From a virus (lineage: Duplodnaviria > Heunggongvirae > Uroviricota > Caudoviricetes): 4,095 nucleotides of DNA. Of the stretch, positions 138 through 4,095 are shown piece by piece. Each line of letters starts with the position of its first letter. The first letter of the stretch is position 1. Both the position numbers and the translations under genes were made by a program. Location: IMG/VR virus record IMGVR_UViG_2671180294_000008. One strand, written 5' to 3'. The notes under the pieces are model-generated. The model was given only the letters and a program-made list of their open reading frames with translations. It was not told the DNA's origin and did not search any database.

Positions 138-1529
138 ATGACAACACCAGTCTGGCGTAATGATGACCTGGAAGGCGCTGTCATTGGCGCATTCTTTCTG
201 CGTGGGGCAGATCATGAAGTGATGGATATTCTGATCACACTACCGGCGGACATTTTTTCTGTACGAGCGTATCGGGATATCTACACAGGCATCTGCAGAC
301 AGGCCCGTGTTTCAGGAGTGATTGACCCCGTGCTGTTGTGTAATGAGATGCCGGAACTTGCCCCGGTGATTACTGATACCGGGCGTAAAACCTGGGTGAA
401 GTCTTCACTGGAGCACTATGTTGCAGCGTTGCGGCGCAATGCCGCACTGCGCGATGCAGAAAAAACACTGAATGAGGCGCTGCAGAAATTACGTGATGCG
501 CATACCTGTGAAGCAGCTGAAGATGCCCTGAAGGATGCGCAGAACATGATGGTCACACTGTCGACAGGAAAGGGCGTCATTCAGCCGGTACATATTGATG
601 ATGTGCTTCCGGAAGTGGTTGAGCGTGTTGAATGCCGGAATCAGGGGCTGGAGAAATCCAGGACGTTGATGACCGGTATTGATGAACTGGACGCAAAAAC
701 AGGCGGTATGGAGCCCGGAGACCTGGTATTCATTGCCGCCCGTCCTTCGATGGGGAAAACCGAACTTGCGCTGGACATCATCGACAAGGTGACTGAGCAG
801 GGGCATGGTGTGCTTCTGTTCACCATGGAGATGGCGAACATCCAGATTGGTGAACGTATGGTGTCTGCGGCTGGAGGGATGCCAGTATCACGCCTGAAAT
901 CTGTGGCTCACTTTGAAGATGAAGACTGGGCGCGTTTCTCACAAGGGGTGGGGCGGATGACCGGGCGCAATATCTGGATGGTGGACCAGGCGAACCTGAC
1001 CATTGATGAGATATGCGCAACAACGAAACACCATCTGATTAAACATCCGGAAACGGCGCTGGTGGTGGTTGATTATCTCGGGCTGATAAAAACCCGAACC
1101 ACGGGGCGTCATGACCTTGCCGTGGGTGAAATCTCAAAGGGGCTTAAAGGCCTGGCAAAATCCGGTGGTTTTCCGTTGATTGCGCTGAGCCAGCTCTCCC
1201 GCGGTGTGGAGTCCAGACCCAATAAACGTCCCATGAACTCAGACCTGAAAAATTCCGGAGAAATAGAGGCGGATGCAGACATCATTCTGATGCTTTACAG
1301 GGATGAAGTGTACAACCCGGATACACAGGCTACAGGCATAGCAGAAATTAATATCACGAAACAACGTAACGGTTCTCTGGGGACGATTTACCGGCGTTTT
1401 TATAACGGACATTTTCTGCCTGTGGACCAGGAAAGCGCACAGGTTCTTTCCACCCCAATGCGGCAGCCCCAGCCGCGCAGATACAGCAATACACGTACCG
1501 ACAGCAGTAAGATGGAGCGTTTCTTTTGA
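138..1529 (+). CDS. DnaB-family replicative DNA helicase, phage-encoded (lambda P position / P22 gp12-like)
   Basis: Long ORF in frame 3. Translation carries DnaB signatures: N-terminal LEGAVIGAFF (cf. DnaB LEAEQSVLG), Walker A AARPSMGKT (nt 735-761), Walker B-like LVVVDYLGL, the H3 block ALSQLSRGVESRPNKRPMNSDLKNSGEIEADADIILMLYRDEVY, and GIAEINITKQRNGSLGTI. ATG at 138 chosen over the track's TTG at 117 because it forms an ATGA overlap with a frame-1 stop; the frame stays open to the window edge so the true start is not certain. Stop TGA 1527-1529. Confidence 0.9.
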   Translation: MTTPVWRNDDLEGAVIGAFFLRGADHEVMDILITLPADIFSVRAYRDIYTGICRQARVSGVIDPVLLCNEMPELAPVITDTGRKTWVKSSLEHYVAALRRNAALRDAEKTLNEALQKLRDAHTCEAAEDALKDAQNMMVTLSTGKGVIQPVHIDDVLPEVVERVECRNQGLEKSRTLMTGIDELDAKTGGMEPGDLVFIAARPSMGKTELALDIIDKVTEQGHGVLLFTMEMANIQIGERMVSAAGGMPVSRLKSVAHFEDEDWARFSQGVGRMTGRNIWMVDQANLTIDEICATTKHHLIKHPETALVVVDYLGLIKTRTTGRHDLAVGEISKGLKGLAKSGGFPLIALSQLSRGVESRPNKRPMNSDLKNSGEIEADADIILMLYRDEVYNPDTQATGIAEINITKQRNGSLGTIYRRFYNGHFLPVDQESAQVLSTPMRQPQPRRYSNTRTDSSKMERFF

Positions 1530-1700
1530 ACAACCAGACAATGACTTTTACCTCTGAACAATTGCGTAAACACGCGCAGGAAATGTTGCGACAGGCGGAA
1601 CAACTGGAAAAAACAGGTGTAACAAAAGATGCCATTCGTCGGGATATGGTGCCAGCGCTCAGGGAACTGATGCAGGCGAAACATCGCGCACAAAAAGCGG
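1467..1700 (+). repeat. Diverged direct repeat, copy A (helicase 3' tail plus 5' part of small gene), truncated by the N-run
   Basis: Aligns by eye with 1866-2098 at roughly 85-90% nucleotide identity; the block around the helicase stop and small-gene start (about 1503-1552 vs 1901-1950) is identical in both copies. Confidence 0.85.
1526..1700 (+). CDS. Small helical (coiled-coil-like) hypothetical protein, paralog A; partial, 3' end lost in N-run
   Basis: ORF begins at TTG 1526 with GGAG (1514-1517) 8 nt upstream; alternative ATG at 1541. The 58 resolved codons are 54/58 identical in amino acid to paralog B. The track's fusion to 1927 is an artifact of translating N as X. Confidence 0.55.
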
Positions 1701-1865
1701 NNNNNNNNNNNNNNNNNNNNNNNNNNNNNNNNNNNNNNNNNNNNNNNNNNNNNNNNNNNNNNNNNNNNNNNNNNNNNNNNNNNNNNNNNNNNNNNNNNNN
1801 NNNNNNNNNNNNNNNNNNNNNNNNNNNNNNNNNNNNNNNNNNNNNNNNNNNNNNNNNNNNNNNNN
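1701..1865. other. Run of 165 N (unresolved or masked sequence; assembly/scaffold gap)
   Basis: Directly visible: 165 consecutive n characters. Content and true length unknown. Confidence 0.95.
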
Positions 1866-2098
1866 GCAATCCGCGCAGATACAGTAATAAACGAACTGAC
1901 AGCAGTAAGATGGAGCGTTTCTTTTGAACAACCAGACAATGACTTTTACCCCTGAACAATTGCGTAAACACGCGCAGGAAATGCTGCGTCATGCTGAACA
2001 ACTCGAAAAAACGGGCATAACAAAAGACGCTATCCGTAAAGATATGGTACCCGCGCTTCGGGAACTGATGCAGGCGAAGCATCGCGCACAGAAAGCAG
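1866..2098 (+). repeat. Diverged direct repeat, copy B (helicase-tail-like remnant plus 5' part of small gene)
   Basis: 1866-1927 encodes ..NPRRYSNKRTDSSKMERFF-stop, matching the helicase C-terminus ..QPRRYSNTRTDSSKMERFF-stop at 1470-1529; it is followed by the same small-gene start context as copy A. Confidence 0.85.
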
Positions 2099-2181
2099 TA
2101 GATGAGCTGGTGGACTGTGTGGCAGAGCTGGAAACCAGAGTCGGAAAGTTTGAAAAACTGGTGCAGGAGGTGCTGCGCTGA
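1924..2181 (+). CDS. Small helical (coiled-coil-like) hypothetical protein, paralog B (85 aa from TTG 1924; 80 aa if ATG 1939 is used)
   Basis: Complete ORF; GGAG at 1912-1915 lies 8 nt before TTG 1924; stop TGA 2179-2181 shares its A with the rusA ATG. Product is rich in E/K/Q/L/A with heptad-like spacing. Differences from paralog A are mostly synonymous (16 synonymous vs 4 non-synonymous codon differences in 58 codons), which supports real coding. No family recognised. Confidence 0.65.
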   Translation: MNNQTMTFTPEQLRKHAQEMLRHAEQLEKTGITKDAIRKDMVPALRELMQAKHRAQKAVDELVDCVAELETRVGKFEKLVQEVLR

Positions 2182-2552
2182 TGCGCCATGAGTTTATTTT
2201 ACCTTATCCGCCGACGGTGAATACTTACTGGCGACGTCGTGGCAGCACATATTTTGTATCAAAAGTTGGTGAGCGTTATCGCCGTGATGTGACGCTAATT
2301 GTTCGCCAGCAGCGGCTGAAATTAAACCTGTCCGGAAGGCTGGCGATAAAGATTATTGCAGAGCCACCGGATAAGCGCCGTCGTGACCTGGACAATATCC
2401 TGAAAGCACCACTGGATGCGCTGACGCATGCCGGACTACTCATAGACGACGAGCAGTTTGATGAAATCAATATTGTGCGCGGTCAGCTCGTTCCTGGTGG
2501 GCGACTGGGCGTGAAGATTTATGAAATCACAGGTGATAACGATGGCGCGTGA
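2181..2552 (+). CDS. rusA: RusA-family Holliday junction resolvase (crossover junction endodeoxyribonuclease)
   Basis: 123-aa product with RusA hallmarks: [15 protein letters not shown] (cf. E. coli RusA LPWPPSNNRYYRHNRG), [29 protein letters not shown] (acidic catalytic cluster, cf. [29 protein letters not shown]) and [16 protein letters not shown] at 2166-2170 sits 10 nt before ATG 2181. Position between the replication genes and Q is typical of lambdoid nin regions. Confidence 0.88.
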
Positions 2553-2928
2553 TATTCAGCAGGTTATGGAACGGTGGGGGGCTTGGGCTGCAAACACTCA
2601 TGAAGATGTATCCTGGGCGTCGATCGCTGCTGGTTTTAAAGGGTTAATTCCGTCGAAAGTGAAATCACGCCCTCAGTGTTCTGATGATGATGCAATGATA
2701 ATTTGTGGCTGTATGGCCCGGTTGAACAAGAAAAATCAGGATTTGCACGATTTGCTGGTGGATTATTACGTAGGTGGAATGACTTTTATGAGTCTGGCAC
2801 GGAAACATGGGTGTTCGGATACCTGTATTGGCAAGCGCCTGCAGAAAGCGGAAGGGGTTATTGATGGCATGTTGATGATGCTTGATATCCGGCTGGAGAT
2901 GGACAGATACGTAGAACGAATTATGTAG
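2542..2928 (+). CDS. Q-type late-gene antiterminator, compact about 128-aa Cys-rich family (resembles the short Q of E. coli cryptic prophages, e.g. QuuD-like)
   Basis: ORF ends 2928 immediately upstream of a promoter-like element, the canonical Q/pR' arrangement. Product [17 protein letters not shown]... contains C-x8-CGC and GCSDTC cysteine clusters (putative Zn site). ATG 2542 preferred over the track's 2521 because AGGTGA (2531-2536) lies 5 nt upstream; this gives an 11-nt overlap with the rusA stop. Family assignment is from memory of similar short prophage Q proteins, not a search. Confidence 0.72.
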
Positions 2929-2932
2929 GTGC

Positions 2933-2962
2933 TTGACCAGACACATTGTCCGGGGCTATATT
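2933..2962 (+). promoter_or_regulatory. Sigma70-type promoter, candidate late promoter pR' (Q-utilisation region)
   Basis: -35 TTGACC (2933-2938), 18-nt spacer, -10 TATATT (2957-2962), starting 5 nt after the Q stop codon. Predicted TSS about 2969. Confidence 0.5.
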
Positions 2963-3023
2963 CCTCACGCGCCAGCAAAATCTGGCGTCGGGATTGGAAC
3001 CCCGGATAGAGACCGCGACAGAC

Positions 3024-3048
3024 ACACGCCGCGAGCGTGTTTTTTATT
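3024..3048 (+). terminator. Intrinsic terminator, candidate tR' (ends a roughly 75-80 nt pR' leader RNA)
   Basis: Stem ACACGC (3024-3029) / GCGTGT (3035-3040), 5-nt loop CGCGA, followed by TTTTTATT (3041-3048). Confidence 0.5.
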
Positions 3049-3173
3049 GTCGTATGCACGCGCACATCTGAATTATGGTGGGGCGCATGGGGGAGCTGAA
3101 AAGCTCGCCGGTCGGTTTCCCGGTAGTTCCAACCCTGTGCGTCTCACCACCCGATGATTGGAACCTGACGGTG

Positions 3174-3202
3174 TTGACAGTTTCAGGTTTGCAGTTTACA
3201 TT
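3174..3202 (+). promoter_or_regulatory. Sigma70-like promoter candidate upstream of the ORF6N gene
   Basis: Perfect -35 TTGACA (3174-3179), 17-nt spacer, -10 TACATT (3197-3202; 4/6 to consensus, with A2 and T6 conserved). Confidence 0.4.
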
Positions 3203-3237
3203 TCCCCGCGGTGCTCAAAACACCTCGAAAGCGGTAT

Positions 3238-3265
3238 CCACACCCGATAGCCATGTGGTTTTTTT
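3238..3265 (+). terminator. Weak hairpin plus T7 tract (possible attenuator or leader terminator)
   Basis: CCACA (3238-3242) / TGTGG (3254-3258) with an 11-nt loop, followed by TTTTTTT (3259-3265). Stem is short and the loop large, so terminator activity is uncertain. Confidence 0.3.
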
Positions 3266-3408
3266 GTGTCCAGAATTCTTGGTTTATGACCGGGTGTGCG
3301 GCTAATACAATACCAGCAATGGAAATACGCCCGCCGACTTTCGACGGTTTTGAGCGCCCGGTCACCCTCTCAAAAGGGGTAAATCAAAATATTCGAAAGG
3401 ACATGTCT

Positions 3409-3972
3409 ATGAATCGCACGTCTATTGAAAAACTCCCGTCACTTACGCATAACCATCTTCCTGTCATGACAACAGAGCTGCTGGCTGATTTGTACGGAAC
3501 AGAGCGCCAGCGTTTGACAAACAATTTCAATCGAAACAAAGAACGGTTTATAGAAGGTAAACATTTTTTCCTGATAGAAGGTGATGCGTTACGAGAGTTG
3601 AAGAACGAAAACTCTTTAAGAGTTTCTGTGAAAATTGCCCGTAACGTTCGCTCCCTCATCCTCTGGACAGAACGTGGCGCAGCCCGTCACGCCAAAATGC
3701 TCGAAACCGATCAGGCGTGGGAAGTGTTCGAAAAACTGGAAGACTGTTATTTCAACCAGAAACAGCCACCAGCGGCACAAAACACATCTATCGAAAATGA
3801 TGGATGCGCATTACTGAGCCACTTCGATAAACACGGTCAGGTTGAGTTCACGGAAAAGGTACCCGCCGATGCGATGGTATGTACTCTGGAACGGTTTAAA
3901 TTTTATCTGGAGCAACACGGGTGGATCGTTGCCCGTAAAGAGCAACTGGTGGAGCGGTTGATGCGGTTTTAA
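3409..3972 (+). CDS. ORF6N-domain (KilA-N-related, antirepressor-like) protein with uncharacterised C-terminal half; moron in the Q-to-lysis position
   Basis: ATG 3409 has AAGGA (3397-3401) 7 nt upstream; the track's start at 3211 and the in-frame ATG 3403 lack a usable SD. The N-terminal roughly 95 aa show the ORF6N pattern LADLYG..(x)..NFNRNKERFIEGKHFF.L.G..L..(x)..LWTERGA..AKML..D.AW. Stop TAA 3970-3972. Domain call is by eye. Confidence 0.68.
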   Translation: MNRTSIEKLPSLTHNHLPVMTTELLADLYGTERQRLTNNFNRNKERFIEGKHFFLIEGDALRELKNENSLRVSVKIARNVRSLILWTERGAARHAKMLETDQAWEVFEKLEDCYFNQKQPPAAQNTSIENDGCALLSHFDKHGQVEFTEKVPADAMVCTLERFKFYLEQHGWIVARKEQLVERLMRF

Positions 3973-4047
3973 AAATTTTTTCCGAAAACTTTACGATCGT
4001 AAAAAGTTGAATATCCTGTTAAGAGTGGTTACTACGCCACACAGCTT

Positions 4048-4073
4048 AAACCCGCCGATGAGCGGGTTTTTTT
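4048..4073 (+). terminator. Strong intrinsic (Rho-independent) terminator
   Basis: AAA-CCCGC (4048-4055) / GCGGG (4062-4066) GC stem with 6-nt loop CGATGA, followed by T7 (4067-4073); 76 nt downstream of the ORF6N stop. Confidence 0.75.
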
Positions 4074-4095
4074 ATACCTGAAAAACGGCACAGGA

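What the first reader, a model, noticed from the sequence alone, without database searches (positions are those of the whole stretch)
2933..3048. Q-dependent late promoter module producing a short terminated leader RNA
Five nt after the Q stop there is a near-consensus sigma70 promoter (TTGACC-18-TATATT). The predicted transcript begins with a perfect 6-bp hairpin (CGCCAG 2970-2975 / CTGGCG 2982-2987, loop CAAAAT) and ends about 75-80 nt later at a stem plus T-tract terminator (3024-3048). This matches the lambdoid pR'-qut-tR' arrangement in which unmodified RNA polymerase makes a short RNA (lambda 6S RNA; StxS-type sRNA in Stx phages) and Q-modified polymerase reads through. The early hairpin and the A-rich CAAAAT loop lie where sigma-dependent promoter-proximal pause elements sit in characterised Q systems. 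Because this Q is a short, less-studied type, its qut determinants here would be informative.
Basis: partly seen in the sequence, partly recalled or inferred. Interest (0 to 1): 0.45.

Follow-up and report, generated by a model that had tools for sequence, protein, structure and literature searches.

The report
IsrK decoy RNA, not late promoter
The promoter, hairpins and terminator just after the phage Q gene are real, but they make a known small RNA (IsrK) that heads an inserted antirepressor-control cassette; the phage's real Q-dependent late promoter lies about 1 kb further downstream.

Summary
TTGACC-18-TATATT (2933-2962), the 5' hairpin (2969-2988) and a hairpin plus T-tract terminator (3024-3045) define a roughly 77-nt RNA.

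The interpretation does not hold. The RNA is a full-length member of Rfam isrK (RF01394, 77.5 bits, E 5e-16) and overlaps c4-a1b1 (RF03163). A C4 antisense RNA (3071-3154) and an ORF6N antirepressor gene (3409-3972) follow. This is the antQ-isrK-orf45-anrP layout characterised in Salmonella prophage Gifsy-1.

The promoter belongs to this cassette and not to Q:
- The same promoter and RNA sit after NinE in VT2-Sakai and Nil2.
- They sit near the integrase in 933W-like phages.
- They sit after an unrelated Q82-type Q in Gifsy-1.

Two IsrK segments covary perfectly with the C4 RNA (29 of 29 unique cassettes, six b-element types). IsrK therefore carries the upstream C4 target sites, acting as a decoy.

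The element tied to this Q family is at 3990-4075: TTTACGATCGTAAA, -10 TATCCT, hairpin, terminator. It is homologous to the Stx-phage pR', whose start site is mapped. It abuts Q in relatives that lack the cassette. Four tRNAs and lysis genes follow it in a contig identical to the window's Q-to-pR' stretch.

Side finding: a second, tandem module built on an sRNA-Xcc1-type RNA appears to work the same way.

The parts
2542..2928 (+). Q antiterminator gene. An alternative ATG lies at 2521. It belongs to the Q21/933W family, and its C-terminal tail is replaced at the cassette junction after ...RYVER.
   Evidence: Pfam PF06530, E 2.7e-52. Distant match to Q21 structures 6jnx/6p18, E 2.7e-7. 78% identical to VT2-Sakai Q up to residue 133, then divergent.
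2933..2962 (+). PisrK, the cassette's own sigma-70-type promoter (TTGACC-18-TATATT). The predicted start is G2969.
   Evidence: Both hexamers are invariant in 30 unique cassette heads whatever lies upstream. Homology between contexts begins about 5 nt upstream of the -35. The Gifsy-1 counterpart is TTGACA-18-TATATT. PisrK drives transcription in Gifsy-1.
2969..3046 (+). IsrK-family small RNA. It is both the leader of the cassette transcript and the carrier of the upstream C4 target sites.
   Evidence: Rfam RF01394, 77.5 bits, full length; RF03163 c4-a1b1, 50.1 bits at 2956-3008. Predicted fold.
2969..2988 (+). Hairpin 1: a 7-bp stem with the nearly invariant loop CAAAAU. Its function is unknown.
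   Evidence: Compensatory changes at 3 pairs; the loop is unchanged in 25 of 27 unique sequences.
2989..3004 (+). Hairpin 2 (CGGG/CCCG). Its loop carries recognition element b1; the variable pentamer GGAAC is at 2996-3000.
   Evidence: b1 equals the reverse complement of b' in 29 of 29 unique cassettes, across six types. Positions 2996 and 2999 correspond to G28 and G31, which were mutated in Gifsy-1.
3009..3015 (+). Recognition element a1 (GAGACCG) in the single-stranded linker.
   Evidence: It pairs over 6-8 bp with the cognate C4 hairpin loop in every a-type. The a and b types reassort independently.
3024..3045 (+). Intrinsic terminator of IsrK. By homology it is only partly efficient.
   Evidence: Each variant keeps a GC hairpin plus T-run. 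Partial read-through was shown in Gifsy-1.
3071..3154 (+). C4-type antisense RNA. The a' loop CGGTTTC is at 3113-3119; b' GTTCCAACCC is at 3126-3135. ATGs at 3075 and 3087 lie at +107 and +119, as for Gifsy-1 orf45.
   Evidence: Rfam RF01695, 71 bits. Folding z = -5.0. Covariation. Gifsy-1 numbering.
3156..3165 (+). b2, the downstream copy of the b target (GATTGGAACC).
   Evidence: Identical to b1 in every b-type. The a2/Shine-Dalgarno/ATG segment that follows b2 in ordinary cassettes is missing here.
3174..3202 (+). P2, a promoter-like site (TTGACA-17-TACATT) at the head of the second module.
   Evidence: Homologous modules in other contexts each have a -10-like hexamer 7-9 nt before GGTGCTCAAAACACC.
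3210..3265 (+). Leader 2, an analogue of IsrK. It has a 5' hairpin GGTG/CACC with a CAAAA-containing loop, site 1 TCGAAAG (3225-3231), and a weak terminator-like hairpin 3238-3258 plus T7.
   Evidence: Site 1 matches the Xcc1 loop in four specificity types. The hairpin is weak.
3288..3371 (+). sRNA-Xcc1-family RNA. Its hairpin loop CTTTCGA (3338-3344) is complementary to site 1 and to site 2.
   Evidence: Rfam RF02221, 77.4 bits. Three-way covariation in 15 unique sequences of four types.
3393..3401 (+). Site 2 (TCGAAAG), overlapping the Shine-Dalgarno AAGGA of the antirepressor gene.
3409..3972 (+). ORF6N-domain antirepressor gene, the AnrP counterpart.
   Evidence: Pfam PF10543, E 8.8e-21. 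RefSeq annotates the homologue with the same start.
3990..4075 (+). The late promoter unit of this Q family: -35 TTTACG 3990-3995 within the palindrome TTTACGATCGTAAA 3990-4003; -10 TATCCT 4012-4017; start about 4022-4024; hairpin 4025-4040; terminator 4048-4069 plus T-run.
   Evidence: Homologous to the VT2-Sakai promoter TTTACG-16-TATCAT, whose start matches the dRNA-seq pR' start 258 nt before tR'. Found after Q in 84 of 90 loci. Core invariant in 36 unique units. Folding z = -3.6. Four tRNAs and a P21-type holin, lysozyme and Rz follow it in a contig identical to the window's Q-to-pR' stretch.

Best explanation
Region 2933-3048 is the promoter and small-RNA head of a mobile antirepressor-control cassette. 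The cassette is of the P1 immI / Gifsy-1 isrK kind and sits between the Q gene and Q's own late promoter.

Shown by sequence:
- PisrK starts transcription at about 2969.
- Most transcripts would end at the 3024-3045 terminator, giving the roughly 77-nt IsrK RNA.
- IsrK carries two elements complementary to the C4 RNA: b1 in the loop of hairpin 2, and a1 in the linker.

Shown in Gifsy-1 and inferred here:
- A fraction of transcripts read through and carry the C4-type antisense RNA and the antirepressor message.
- In cis, IsrK pairs with the C4 segment and locks the long transcript in an untranslated form.
- In trans, free IsrK competes for the same C4 sequences and relieves the block. It is an anti-antisense decoy that tips the prophage towards antirepressor production and induction.

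Specific to this copy:
- The first module has kept IsrK, C4 and b2.
- It has lost its a2/Shine-Dalgarno/start segment to a second module of the same logic: P2, leader 2, an sRNA-Xcc1-type RNA, and a target over the ORF6N ribosome-binding site.

The Q-dependent late promoter is the separate unit at 3990-4075.
For: Family membership:
- isrK 77.5 bits, c4-a1b1 50.1 bits and C4 71 bits, all above their gathering scores.
- Collinearity with Gifsy-1 holds to the nucleotide. The ATGs lie at +107 and +119. G28 and G31 fall in b1 and C159 and C162 fall in b'.

Pairing between IsrK and C4:
- b1 = reverse complement of b' = b2 in 29 of 29 unique cassettes, across six types.
- a1 and a' pair over 6-8 bp in all cassettes, and the a and b types reassort.

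Independence from Q:
- The same promoter and RNA follow NinE, lie near the integrase, or follow a Q82-type Q.
- 45 loci have a homologue of this Q with no cassette after it.

The late promoter lies elsewhere.

Experimental basis in the homologue:
- PisrK drives anrP transcription (280 versus 3 Miller units).
- Read-through is partial.
- IsrK supplied in trans raises anrP translation about 140-fold.
- Compensatory mutations support the pairing.
Against: - Nothing in this window was tested experimentally. The start site, termination efficiency and RNA processing are all inferred.
- Predicted IsrK-C4 duplex energy is not better than shuffled controls (z = -1.0). The support for pairing rests on covariation only.
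- In this copy the first module lacks a2 and the ribosome-binding site it would control. IsrK/C4 may therefore be partly vestigial here, or may act only in trans.
- The nearly invariant CAAAAU loop is left unexplained.
- One paper describes IsrK as coming from an antitermination-regulated promoter.
Confidence: 0.85

Rival explanations
1. PisrK/IsrK is the pR'-qut-tR' unit of this Q. Unmodified polymerase makes the short RNA. Q loads at a binding site and a sigma-dependent pause near CAAAAT, and polymerase then reads through 3024-3045.
For: - The promoter begins 4 nt after the Q stop, and a terminated short RNA follows.
- The same adjacency occurs in Gifsy-1.
- CAAAAT at +8 to +13 has the A2 and T6 of a -10 hexamer and is nearly invariant.
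- The true pR' unit also has a -10-like sequence in the loop of its first hairpin.
- Sy et al. describe IsrK as coming from an antitermination-regulated promoter.
Against: - The identical promoter and RNA occur far from Q, and next to two unrelated Q families whose binding sites should differ.
- The motif that tracks this Q family (TTTACGNNCGTAAA) is absent from 2933-2968. It occurs once in the window, at 3990.
- The -35/-10 spacer varies with context.
- Downstream lie C4 and ant, not late genes.
- Read-through in Gifsy-1 occurs from a plasmid fusion in an uninduced lysogen.
Confidence: 0.04
2. The IsrK-C4 pair in this window is a remnant left by recombination with the Xcc1-type module. IsrK no longer controls the adjacent antirepressor. 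At most it acts in trans on cassettes of the same specificity in co-resident prophages.
For: - The a2/Shine-Dalgarno/ATG segment of ordinary cassettes is replaced from about 3166-3180 onwards.
- The ant gene has its own promoter-like site, leader and antisense RNA.
- E. coli genomes with any match to 2100-4095 carry a median of 2 matching places.
Against: - a1/a' and b1/b'/b2 are still perfectly matched.
- The same hybrid junction occurs with a different a-type and a different Xcc1 loop type in E. coli EC12. The tandem arrangement has therefore persisted through diversification.
- Read-through from PisrK would still supply transcripts to module 2.
Confidence: 0.2
3. IsrK acts mainly as an Hfq-dependent trans-acting small RNA on host mRNAs, as StxS does. 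Its link to the cassette is secondary.
For: - Rfam names the family an Hfq-binding RNA.
- The A-rich loop and the U-tail terminator are typical of Hfq ligands.
- There is a precedent for phage leader RNAs acquiring host targets.
Against: - The variable positions of IsrK covary with C4, not with any host sequence.
- The Gifsy-1 phenotypes require the intact isrK locus.
Confidence: 0.08

Closest known systems
IsrK sRNA and the antQ-isrK-orf45(STnc1160)-anrP-isrJ locus of Salmonella prophage Gifsy-1 (Rfam RF01394; Hershko-Shalev et al. 2016, PMC4825925)
   Same: - Full-length covariance-model match.
- Promoter directly after the Q stop.
- Three-hairpin RNA ending in an intrinsic terminator.
- A C4-type RNA 25 nt downstream, with ATGs at +107 and +119.
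- An ORF6N antirepressor gene, followed by a second short terminated RNA unit.
   Different: - The neighbouring Q is Q21/933W-type here and Q82-type in Gifsy-1.
- Specificity is GGAAC with GAGACCG here, against GGCGT with TCACCG in Gifsy-1.
- The ant translation-initiation region is replaced by an sRNA-Xcc1-type module here.
- The unit after ant is unrelated in sequence to isrJ.
immI operon of phages P1 and P7: c4 antisense RNA with targets a1/b1 and a2/b2, then icd and ant (Citron & Schuster 1990, cited via PMC8201110; Rfam RF01695, RF03163)
   Same: - An antisense RNA processed from the same transcript as its target.
- Two recognition elements, each with one copy upstream and one downstream.
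- It controls an antirepressor.
- Specificity types differ by matched changes.
   Different: - Here the upstream targets sit in a discrete terminated small RNA with its own documented trans activity.
- There is no icd gene.
- The host is a lambdoid prophage rather than a plasmid prophage.
- The a1 element mapped here by covariation lies in the linker after hairpin 2.
Lambdoid pR'-qut-tR' units and their short RNAs (lambda 6S RNA; StxS of Stx phages, PMC7547250)
   Same: A constitutive promoter next to Q, a short terminated RNA, and read-through that gives expression of downstream genes.
   Different: - The 2933-3048 unit is not linked to the Q type, lacks the Q-linked promoter motif and precedes no late genes.
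- The true homologue of the Stx-phage pR' is at 3990-4075.
P4 CI RNA with seqA/seqC (Rfam clan CL00128)
   Same: A processed antisense RNA flanked by upstream and downstream complementary sequences. The Gifsy-1 authors call IsrK a structural homologue of seqA.
   Different: The P4 system causes premature termination of replication-gene transcription and does not control an antirepressor. No sequence match was found here.

Membership tests
IsrK (Rfam RF01394) | Covariance-model score at or above the gathering score over the full model | tested here: met
   77.5 bits against 50, model positions 1-77 of 77, E 4.6e-16.
IsrK (Rfam RF01394) | Own sigma-70-type promoter placing the start at model position 1 | tested here: met
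   TTGACC-18-TATATT ends 6 nt before 2969. Invariant in 30 unique homologues. The start site itself was not measured.
IsrK (Rfam RF01394) | Rho-independent terminator at the 3' end | tested here: met
   Stem 3024-3040 plus T-run.
IsrK (Rfam RF01394) | Middle part complementary to the downstream orf45/STnc1160 (C4) segment | tested here: met
   b1/b' and a1/a' are matched in 29 of 29 unique cassettes. The positions are the same as the Gifsy-1 mutants.
IsrK (Rfam RF01394) | Partial read-through into an antirepressor gene, and trans-activation of its translation | not testable with these tools
   An ORF6N gene is present downstream. The function is shown only for Gifsy-1.
IsrK (Rfam RF01394) | Hfq binding | not testable with these tools
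   Known only from the family name.
c4 antisense system (P1 immI type; RF01695 and RF03163) | C4 RNA and a1b1 motif both above their gathering scores, in the order targets, C4, targets | tested here: met
   c4-a1b1 50.1 bits against 46.7; C4 71 bits against 45. b2 lies at 3156-3165.
c4 antisense system (P1 immI type; RF01695 and RF03163) | Downstream target overlapping the ribosome-binding site of the controlled gene | tested here: not met
   Ordinary cassettes have a2 (GAAACC) just before the Shine-Dalgarno GAGGG of ant. In the window this segment is replaced after about 3166-3180. The role is taken by the Xcc1-type RNA and site 2.
Q-dependent late promoter unit (pR'-qut-tR'), for 2933-3048 | Located immediately downstream of Q and makes a short terminated RNA | tested here: met
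Q-dependent late promoter unit (pR'-qut-tR'), for 2933-3048 | Promoter carries a Q-binding element that is specific to, and inherited with, the Q type | tested here: not met
   The same promoter lies next to a Q21-type Q, a Q82-type Q, NinE and integrase-side genes. The Q-linked motif is absent from it.
Q-dependent late promoter unit (pR'-qut-tR'), for 2933-3048 | Sigma-dependent pause element (-10-like) in the initial transcribed region | tested here: inconclusive
   CAAAAT at +8 to +13 has the A2 and T6 of a -10 hexamer and is conserved. It also forms a hairpin loop. Pausing cannot be assessed from sequence.
Q-dependent late promoter unit (pR'-qut-tR'), for 2933-3048 | Late (lysis and morphogenesis) genes lie behind the terminator | tested here: not met
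   C4 RNA and the antirepressor follow. The tRNAs, holin, lysozyme and Rz follow the 3990-4075 unit.
Q-dependent late promoter unit (pR'-qut-tR'), for 2933-3048 | Read-through depends on Q | not testable with these tools
   Gifsy-1 fusions show basal read-through in an uninduced lysogen. Q dependence was not examined.
Q-dependent late promoter unit, for 3990-4075 | Homology to a late promoter with a mapped start, linkage to the Q family, a terminator, and late genes downstream | tested here: met
   Aligns with VT2-Sakai TTTACG-16-TATCAT, whose start fits the dRNA-seq pR' start. Found in 84 of 90 Q loci. Terminator at 4048-4069. Lysis genes downstream. Action of Q was not tested.

The most novel reading that the evidence does not exclude
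The short terminated leader that carries antisense target sites may be a general design, and it appears twice in tandem in this window. The first copy is IsrK with C4. The second is leader 2 (3210-3265) with the sRNA-Xcc1-family RNA (3288-3371).

The Xcc1 hairpin loop matches a site in leader 2 and a site over the ORF6N ribosome-binding site. This match holds in four independently varying specificity types.

If the reading is right, sRNA-Xcc1 is a cis-encoded immunity antisense RNA of phage antirepressor modules, with its own IsrK-like decoy. The papers I could read treat it instead as a trans-acting virulence sRNA of Xanthomonas and Xylella. I found no paper stating the cis-encoded reading.
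Probability: 0.5. Interest if true: 0.5.

Novelty: already known. Interest (0 to 1): 0.22.

Why it matters
For annotation: a strong promoter and a short terminated RNA right after Q are not enough to call a late promoter. The Q/pR' junction is a hot spot for inserted cargo. In 39 of 90 loci it holds this cassette, and in others it holds different genes. The real qut region can therefore lie about 1 kb away.

For biology: the copy here adds nothing basic to what is known about IsrK. The comparative data do give a clean natural mutagenesis table for IsrK-C4 recognition, with six b-element variants and several a-element variants that reassort independently. They also suggest that a second RNA family, sRNA-Xcc1, works the same way.

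Tried and rejected
- tRNA search of the window found nothing. The GC-rich block after 3048 is therefore not a tRNA cluster.
- RNAduplex energies for IsrK against C4 were no better than shuffles (z = -1.0), and for C4 against the downstream region they were uninformative. I dropped energy in favour of covariation.
- The E. coli Sakai chromosome accession was not in the collection. The pR' start was therefore placed on VT2-Sakai by counting 258 nt back from the tR' T-run. That leaves an uncertainty of 1-2 nt.
- The supplementary start-site table of Sy et al. is not held. I could not check for a mapped start at the VT2-Sakai copy of PisrK.
- The Q21 binding-site sequence is given only in figures. 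I made no direct comparison with the palindrome at 3990-4003.
- The genome-contig scan with Q returned only 8 loci. The viral-contig scan supplied most of the comparative set.
- The original sRNA-Xcc1 paper is not held.
- I considered that the 76-codon ORF at 3075-3305 might be a real gene. It has no Pfam hit and overlaps the C4 RNA. I treated it only as the positional counterpart of orf45.

Full report
**The observation**

The window encodes the following, in order:
- a DnaB-like helicase;
- a small coiled-coil ORF, interrupted by a run of N;
- RusA;
- a Q antiterminator (2521/2542-2928, Pfam PF06530);
- about 480 bp of non-coding sequence;
- an ORF6N-domain gene (3409-3972).

Four nucleotides after the Q stop lies TTGACC-18-TATATT (2933-2962, 10 of 12 matches). 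A 6-bp GC-rich hairpin followed by a T-run ends at 3045. The description is correct.

These signals alone are not above chance.
- The scan finds as many promoter-like and terminator-like sites in shuffled sequence.
- The RNA's folding energy is unremarkable (z = -1.25).

**What it is**

A scan against Rfam gives four strong hits in a row.

| Family | Accession | Coordinates | Bits |
|---|---|---|---|
| isrK | RF01394 | 2969-3045 (full length) | 77.5 (E 4.6e-16) |
| c4-a1b1 | RF03163 | 2956-3008 | 50.1 |
| C4 antisense RNA | RF01695 | 3071-3154 | 71 |
| sRNA-Xcc1 | RF02221 | 3288-3371 | 77.4 |

IsrK was characterised in the Salmonella prophage Gifsy-1 (PMC4825925). The published findings are these.
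- The gene lies directly downstream of a Q-like antiterminator, AntQ.
- It has its own promoter and a Rho-independent terminator.
- Part of the transcripts read through into orf45 and the antirepressor gene anrP. The orf45 region also yields the stable RNA STnc1160.
- The long transcript is translationally silent because the middle of IsrK pairs with the 3' part of orf45.
- Short IsrK supplied in trans competes for that pairing and activates anrP translation about 140-fold.

The window is collinear with Gifsy-1 to the nucleotide. With +1 at 2969, the two ATGs of orf45 fall at +107 (3075) and +119 (3087). The mutated residues G28/G31 and C159/C162 fall in the segments I call b1 and b'. I fetched Gifsy-1 and confirmed the same order of Rfam hits there: isrK, C4, antirepressor, isrJ.

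**The promoter belongs to the cassette, not to Q**

BLAST of 2925-3160 against phage genomes finds the whole unit, promoter included, in 251 records. In most of them it is not next to Q.
- In VT2-Sakai, Nil2 and many Stx phages it follows ninE, about 2.5 kb upstream of Q.
- In 933W-like Stx2a phages it lies near the integrase.
- In Gifsy-1 the neighbouring Q is a Q82-type protein, unrelated to the Q21/933W-type Q of the window.

I aligned 30 unique cassette heads.
- The -35 and -10 hexamers are invariant.
- Homology between the Q, NinE and other contexts begins about 5 nt upstream of the -35.
- The distal half of the spacer varies.

A Q-binding element specific to one Q family could not behave this way.

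**Where the late promoter is**

I collected 90 loci encoding homologues of this Q and compared window segments with them.
- The last 123 bp of the window (3973-4095) have a homologue downstream of Q in 84 loci.
- In about two dozen loci this unit overlaps the Q stop codon. They include VT2-Sakai and a contig labelled Photorhabdus. In contigs labelled Providencia and Martelella it begins 9 and 24 nt after the Q stop.
- In 39 loci the isrK cassette (780-1062 bp) lies between Q and the unit.
- In others a different insert does: a 498-bp insert encoding a small secreted protein, or a 1051-bp insert encoding a CPBP/Abi-like membrane protein.

The core of the unit is invariant in 36 unique versions: TTTACG(AT/TA)CGTAAAA, N5-6, TATnnT, TGnTAAGAGTG, a hairpin and a terminator.

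In VT2-Sakai the promoter is TTTACG-16-TATCAT. Counting 258 nt back from the tR' T-run puts the published dRNA-seq pR' start 6-7 nt after that -10.

By homology, the window's late promoter has these parts:

| Part | Coordinates |
|---|---|
| -35 TTTACG | 3990-3995 |
| -10 TATCCT | 4012-4017 |
| Transcription start | about 4022-4024 |
| First hairpin | 4025-4040 |
| Terminator | 4048-4069 |

In a viral contig identical to the window's Q-to-pR' stretch, four tRNA genes and a P21-type holin, lysozyme and Rz follow this unit. This is the Stx-phage late-region layout. The E. coli EC12 homologue shows the same order.

The window's Q is 78% identical to VT2-Sakai Q up to ...RYVER and then diverges. 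The cassette therefore replaced the Q tail that normally overlaps pR'.

**How IsrK most likely works**

The alignment of cassette heads shows natural specificity swaps. The five or six variable bases in the loop of IsrK hairpin 2 are b1. In every one of 29 unique cassettes, b1 is the exact reverse complement of b' in the C4 RNA and is identical to b2 just after C4.

| b1 / b2 | b' |
|---|---|
| GGAAC (this window) | GTTCC |
| AGGAAC | GTTCCT |
| CGAAC | GTTCG |
| TGCAC | GTGCA |
| GGCGT | ACGCC |
| AGCAC | GTGCT |

- The linker after hairpin 2 (a1, GAGACCG at 3009-3015) pairs over 6-8 bp with the loop of the C4 inner hairpin (a') in every a-type.
- The a and b types reassort independently.
- Hairpin 1 keeps pairing through three compensatory changes, and its loop CAAAAU stays nearly invariant.

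This is the logic of the P1/P7 immI operon, where the c4 antisense RNA has targets upstream and downstream and controls the antirepressor.

Shown here:
- family membership;
- the complementarities and their covariation;
- the position relative to Q and pR'.

Inferred from Gifsy-1 and P1:
- the start site;
- partial termination;
- processing of C4;
- the decoy action of free IsrK.

Predicted duplex energy does not add support.

**What is unusual in this copy**

Ordinary cassettes continue after b2 with a small hairpin, then a2 (GAAACC), the Shine-Dalgarno GAGGG and the ant start. In the window, and in E. coli EC12, this is replaced from about 3166-3180 onwards by a second module:

| Part | Coordinates |
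|---|---|
| Promoter-like site TTGACA-17-TACATT | 3174-3202 |
| Leader 5' hairpin GGTG/CACC with a CAAAA-containing loop | 3210-3224 |
| Site 1, TCGAAAG | 3225-3231 |
| Weak terminator-like hairpin plus T7 | 3238-3265 |
| sRNA-Xcc1-family RNA | 3288-3371 |
| Site 2, TCGAAAG, overlapping the Shine-Dalgarno of the ORF6N gene | 3393-3399 |

The loop of the second Xcc1 hairpin (CTTTCGA, 3338-3344) is complementary to both sites. Among 15 unique homologues there are four types, each matched at all three places.

| Sites 1 and 2 | Xcc1 loop |
|---|---|
| TCGAAAG | CTTTCGA |
| TCAGTAG | CTACTGA |
| CAAGTAG | CTACTTG |
| CAGATAG | CTATCTG |

The sRNA-Xcc1-type RNA therefore appears to be a second kind of c4-like antisense RNA, with its own IsrK-like leader. 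Published work notes that sRNA-Xcc1 sits upstream of ORF6N genes in APSE phages, and that it lies next to isrK and C4 in Xylella. That work treats it as a trans-acting virulence sRNA.

**Comparison with the known, and verdict**

The feature at 2933-3048 is a member of a described and curated family. Any Rfam-based annotation would label it. Its mechanism has been worked out in a homologue.

The Q-dependent late-promoter identity fails two defining tests: linkage of the promoter to the Q type, and late genes behind the terminator. A better candidate for that role lies at 3990-4075.

The remaining open points are the function of the CAAAAU loop and whether the first module still acts in cis in this hybrid copy.

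Interest is low for the finding as stated and moderate for the tandem Xcc1 module noticed on the way.

Noticed in passing
window 3174-3408: There is a second, tandem antisense module. It consists of promoter-like TTGACA-17-TACATT, a short leader with site TCGAAAG and a weak terminator, an sRNA-Xcc1-family RNA whose loop is CTTTCGA, and a second TCGAAAG over the ORF6N Shine-Dalgarno. All three positions covary in four specificity types among 15 unique homologues. This suggests sRNA-Xcc1 is a c4-like immunity RNA.
   Followed up: partly
window 3990-4003, and 36 unique homologues in L003-L092: The late promoters of this Q family share an invariant 14-bp palindrome, TTTACG(AT/TA)CGTAAA, that includes the -35 hexamer. 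It is a likely Q-binding element. Its two-fold symmetry differs from the direct repeat of two 8-bp subsites reported for Q21.
   Followed up: partly
L093 (Gifsy-1) 33406-33513, minus strand: IsrJ has its own promoter, TTGCAA-17-TATATT, right after anrP. Homologues of this promoter and RNA sit at the 3' end of Q-like genes in Klebsiella, Enterobacter and E. coli phages. IsrJ therefore looks like the pR'-derived leader RNA of the Q82-type AntQ, displaced from Q by the isrK cassette.
   Followed up: partly
L051 800-1296; L058 3891-4940: In other relatives the gap between Q and its late promoter holds different cargo. One is a 124-codon ORF for a small secreted-looking protein. Another is a 274-codon CPBP/Abi-like membrane protein. 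The Q/pR' junction seems to be a hot spot for inserted genes.
   Followed up: partly
window 2976-2981 and 3214-3220: Both leader RNAs (IsrK and leader 2) begin with a 5' hairpin whose loop contains CAAAA, at about +6 to +13. The IsrK loop CAAAAU stays fixed while its stem covaries. Nothing I did explains its role. Hfq binding and a sigma-dependent pause are both possible.
   Followed up: no
window 1472-2100: A run of 165 N (1701-1865) is flanked by two copies, 88% identical, of the same roughly 230-bp segment (helicase 3' end plus the start of a small coiled-coil ORF). Otherwise-identical viral contigs lack this extra 398 bp. It is an assembly join, a masked stretch or a tandem duplication.
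   Followed up: partly
window 3075-3305: A 76-codon ORF starts at the same +107 and +119 ATGs as Gifsy-1 orf45 and overlaps the C4 RNA. It ends about 100 nt before the ORF6N start. The translational coupling described for orf45-anrP cannot operate in the same way here.
   Followed up: no
L014 3620-5631: One otherwise identical contig has an insertion of about 2 kb inside the ORF6N gene, possibly an insertion sequence.
   Followed up: no
L004 (VT2-Sakai) 9080-9107: The Stx-phage pR' transcript has a strong terminator-like hairpin plus T7 only about 25-50 nt from the start. The published StxS transcript nevertheless runs 258 nt to tR'. A roughly 50-nt species may have been missed, or this hairpin may be read through efficiently.
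   Followed up: no
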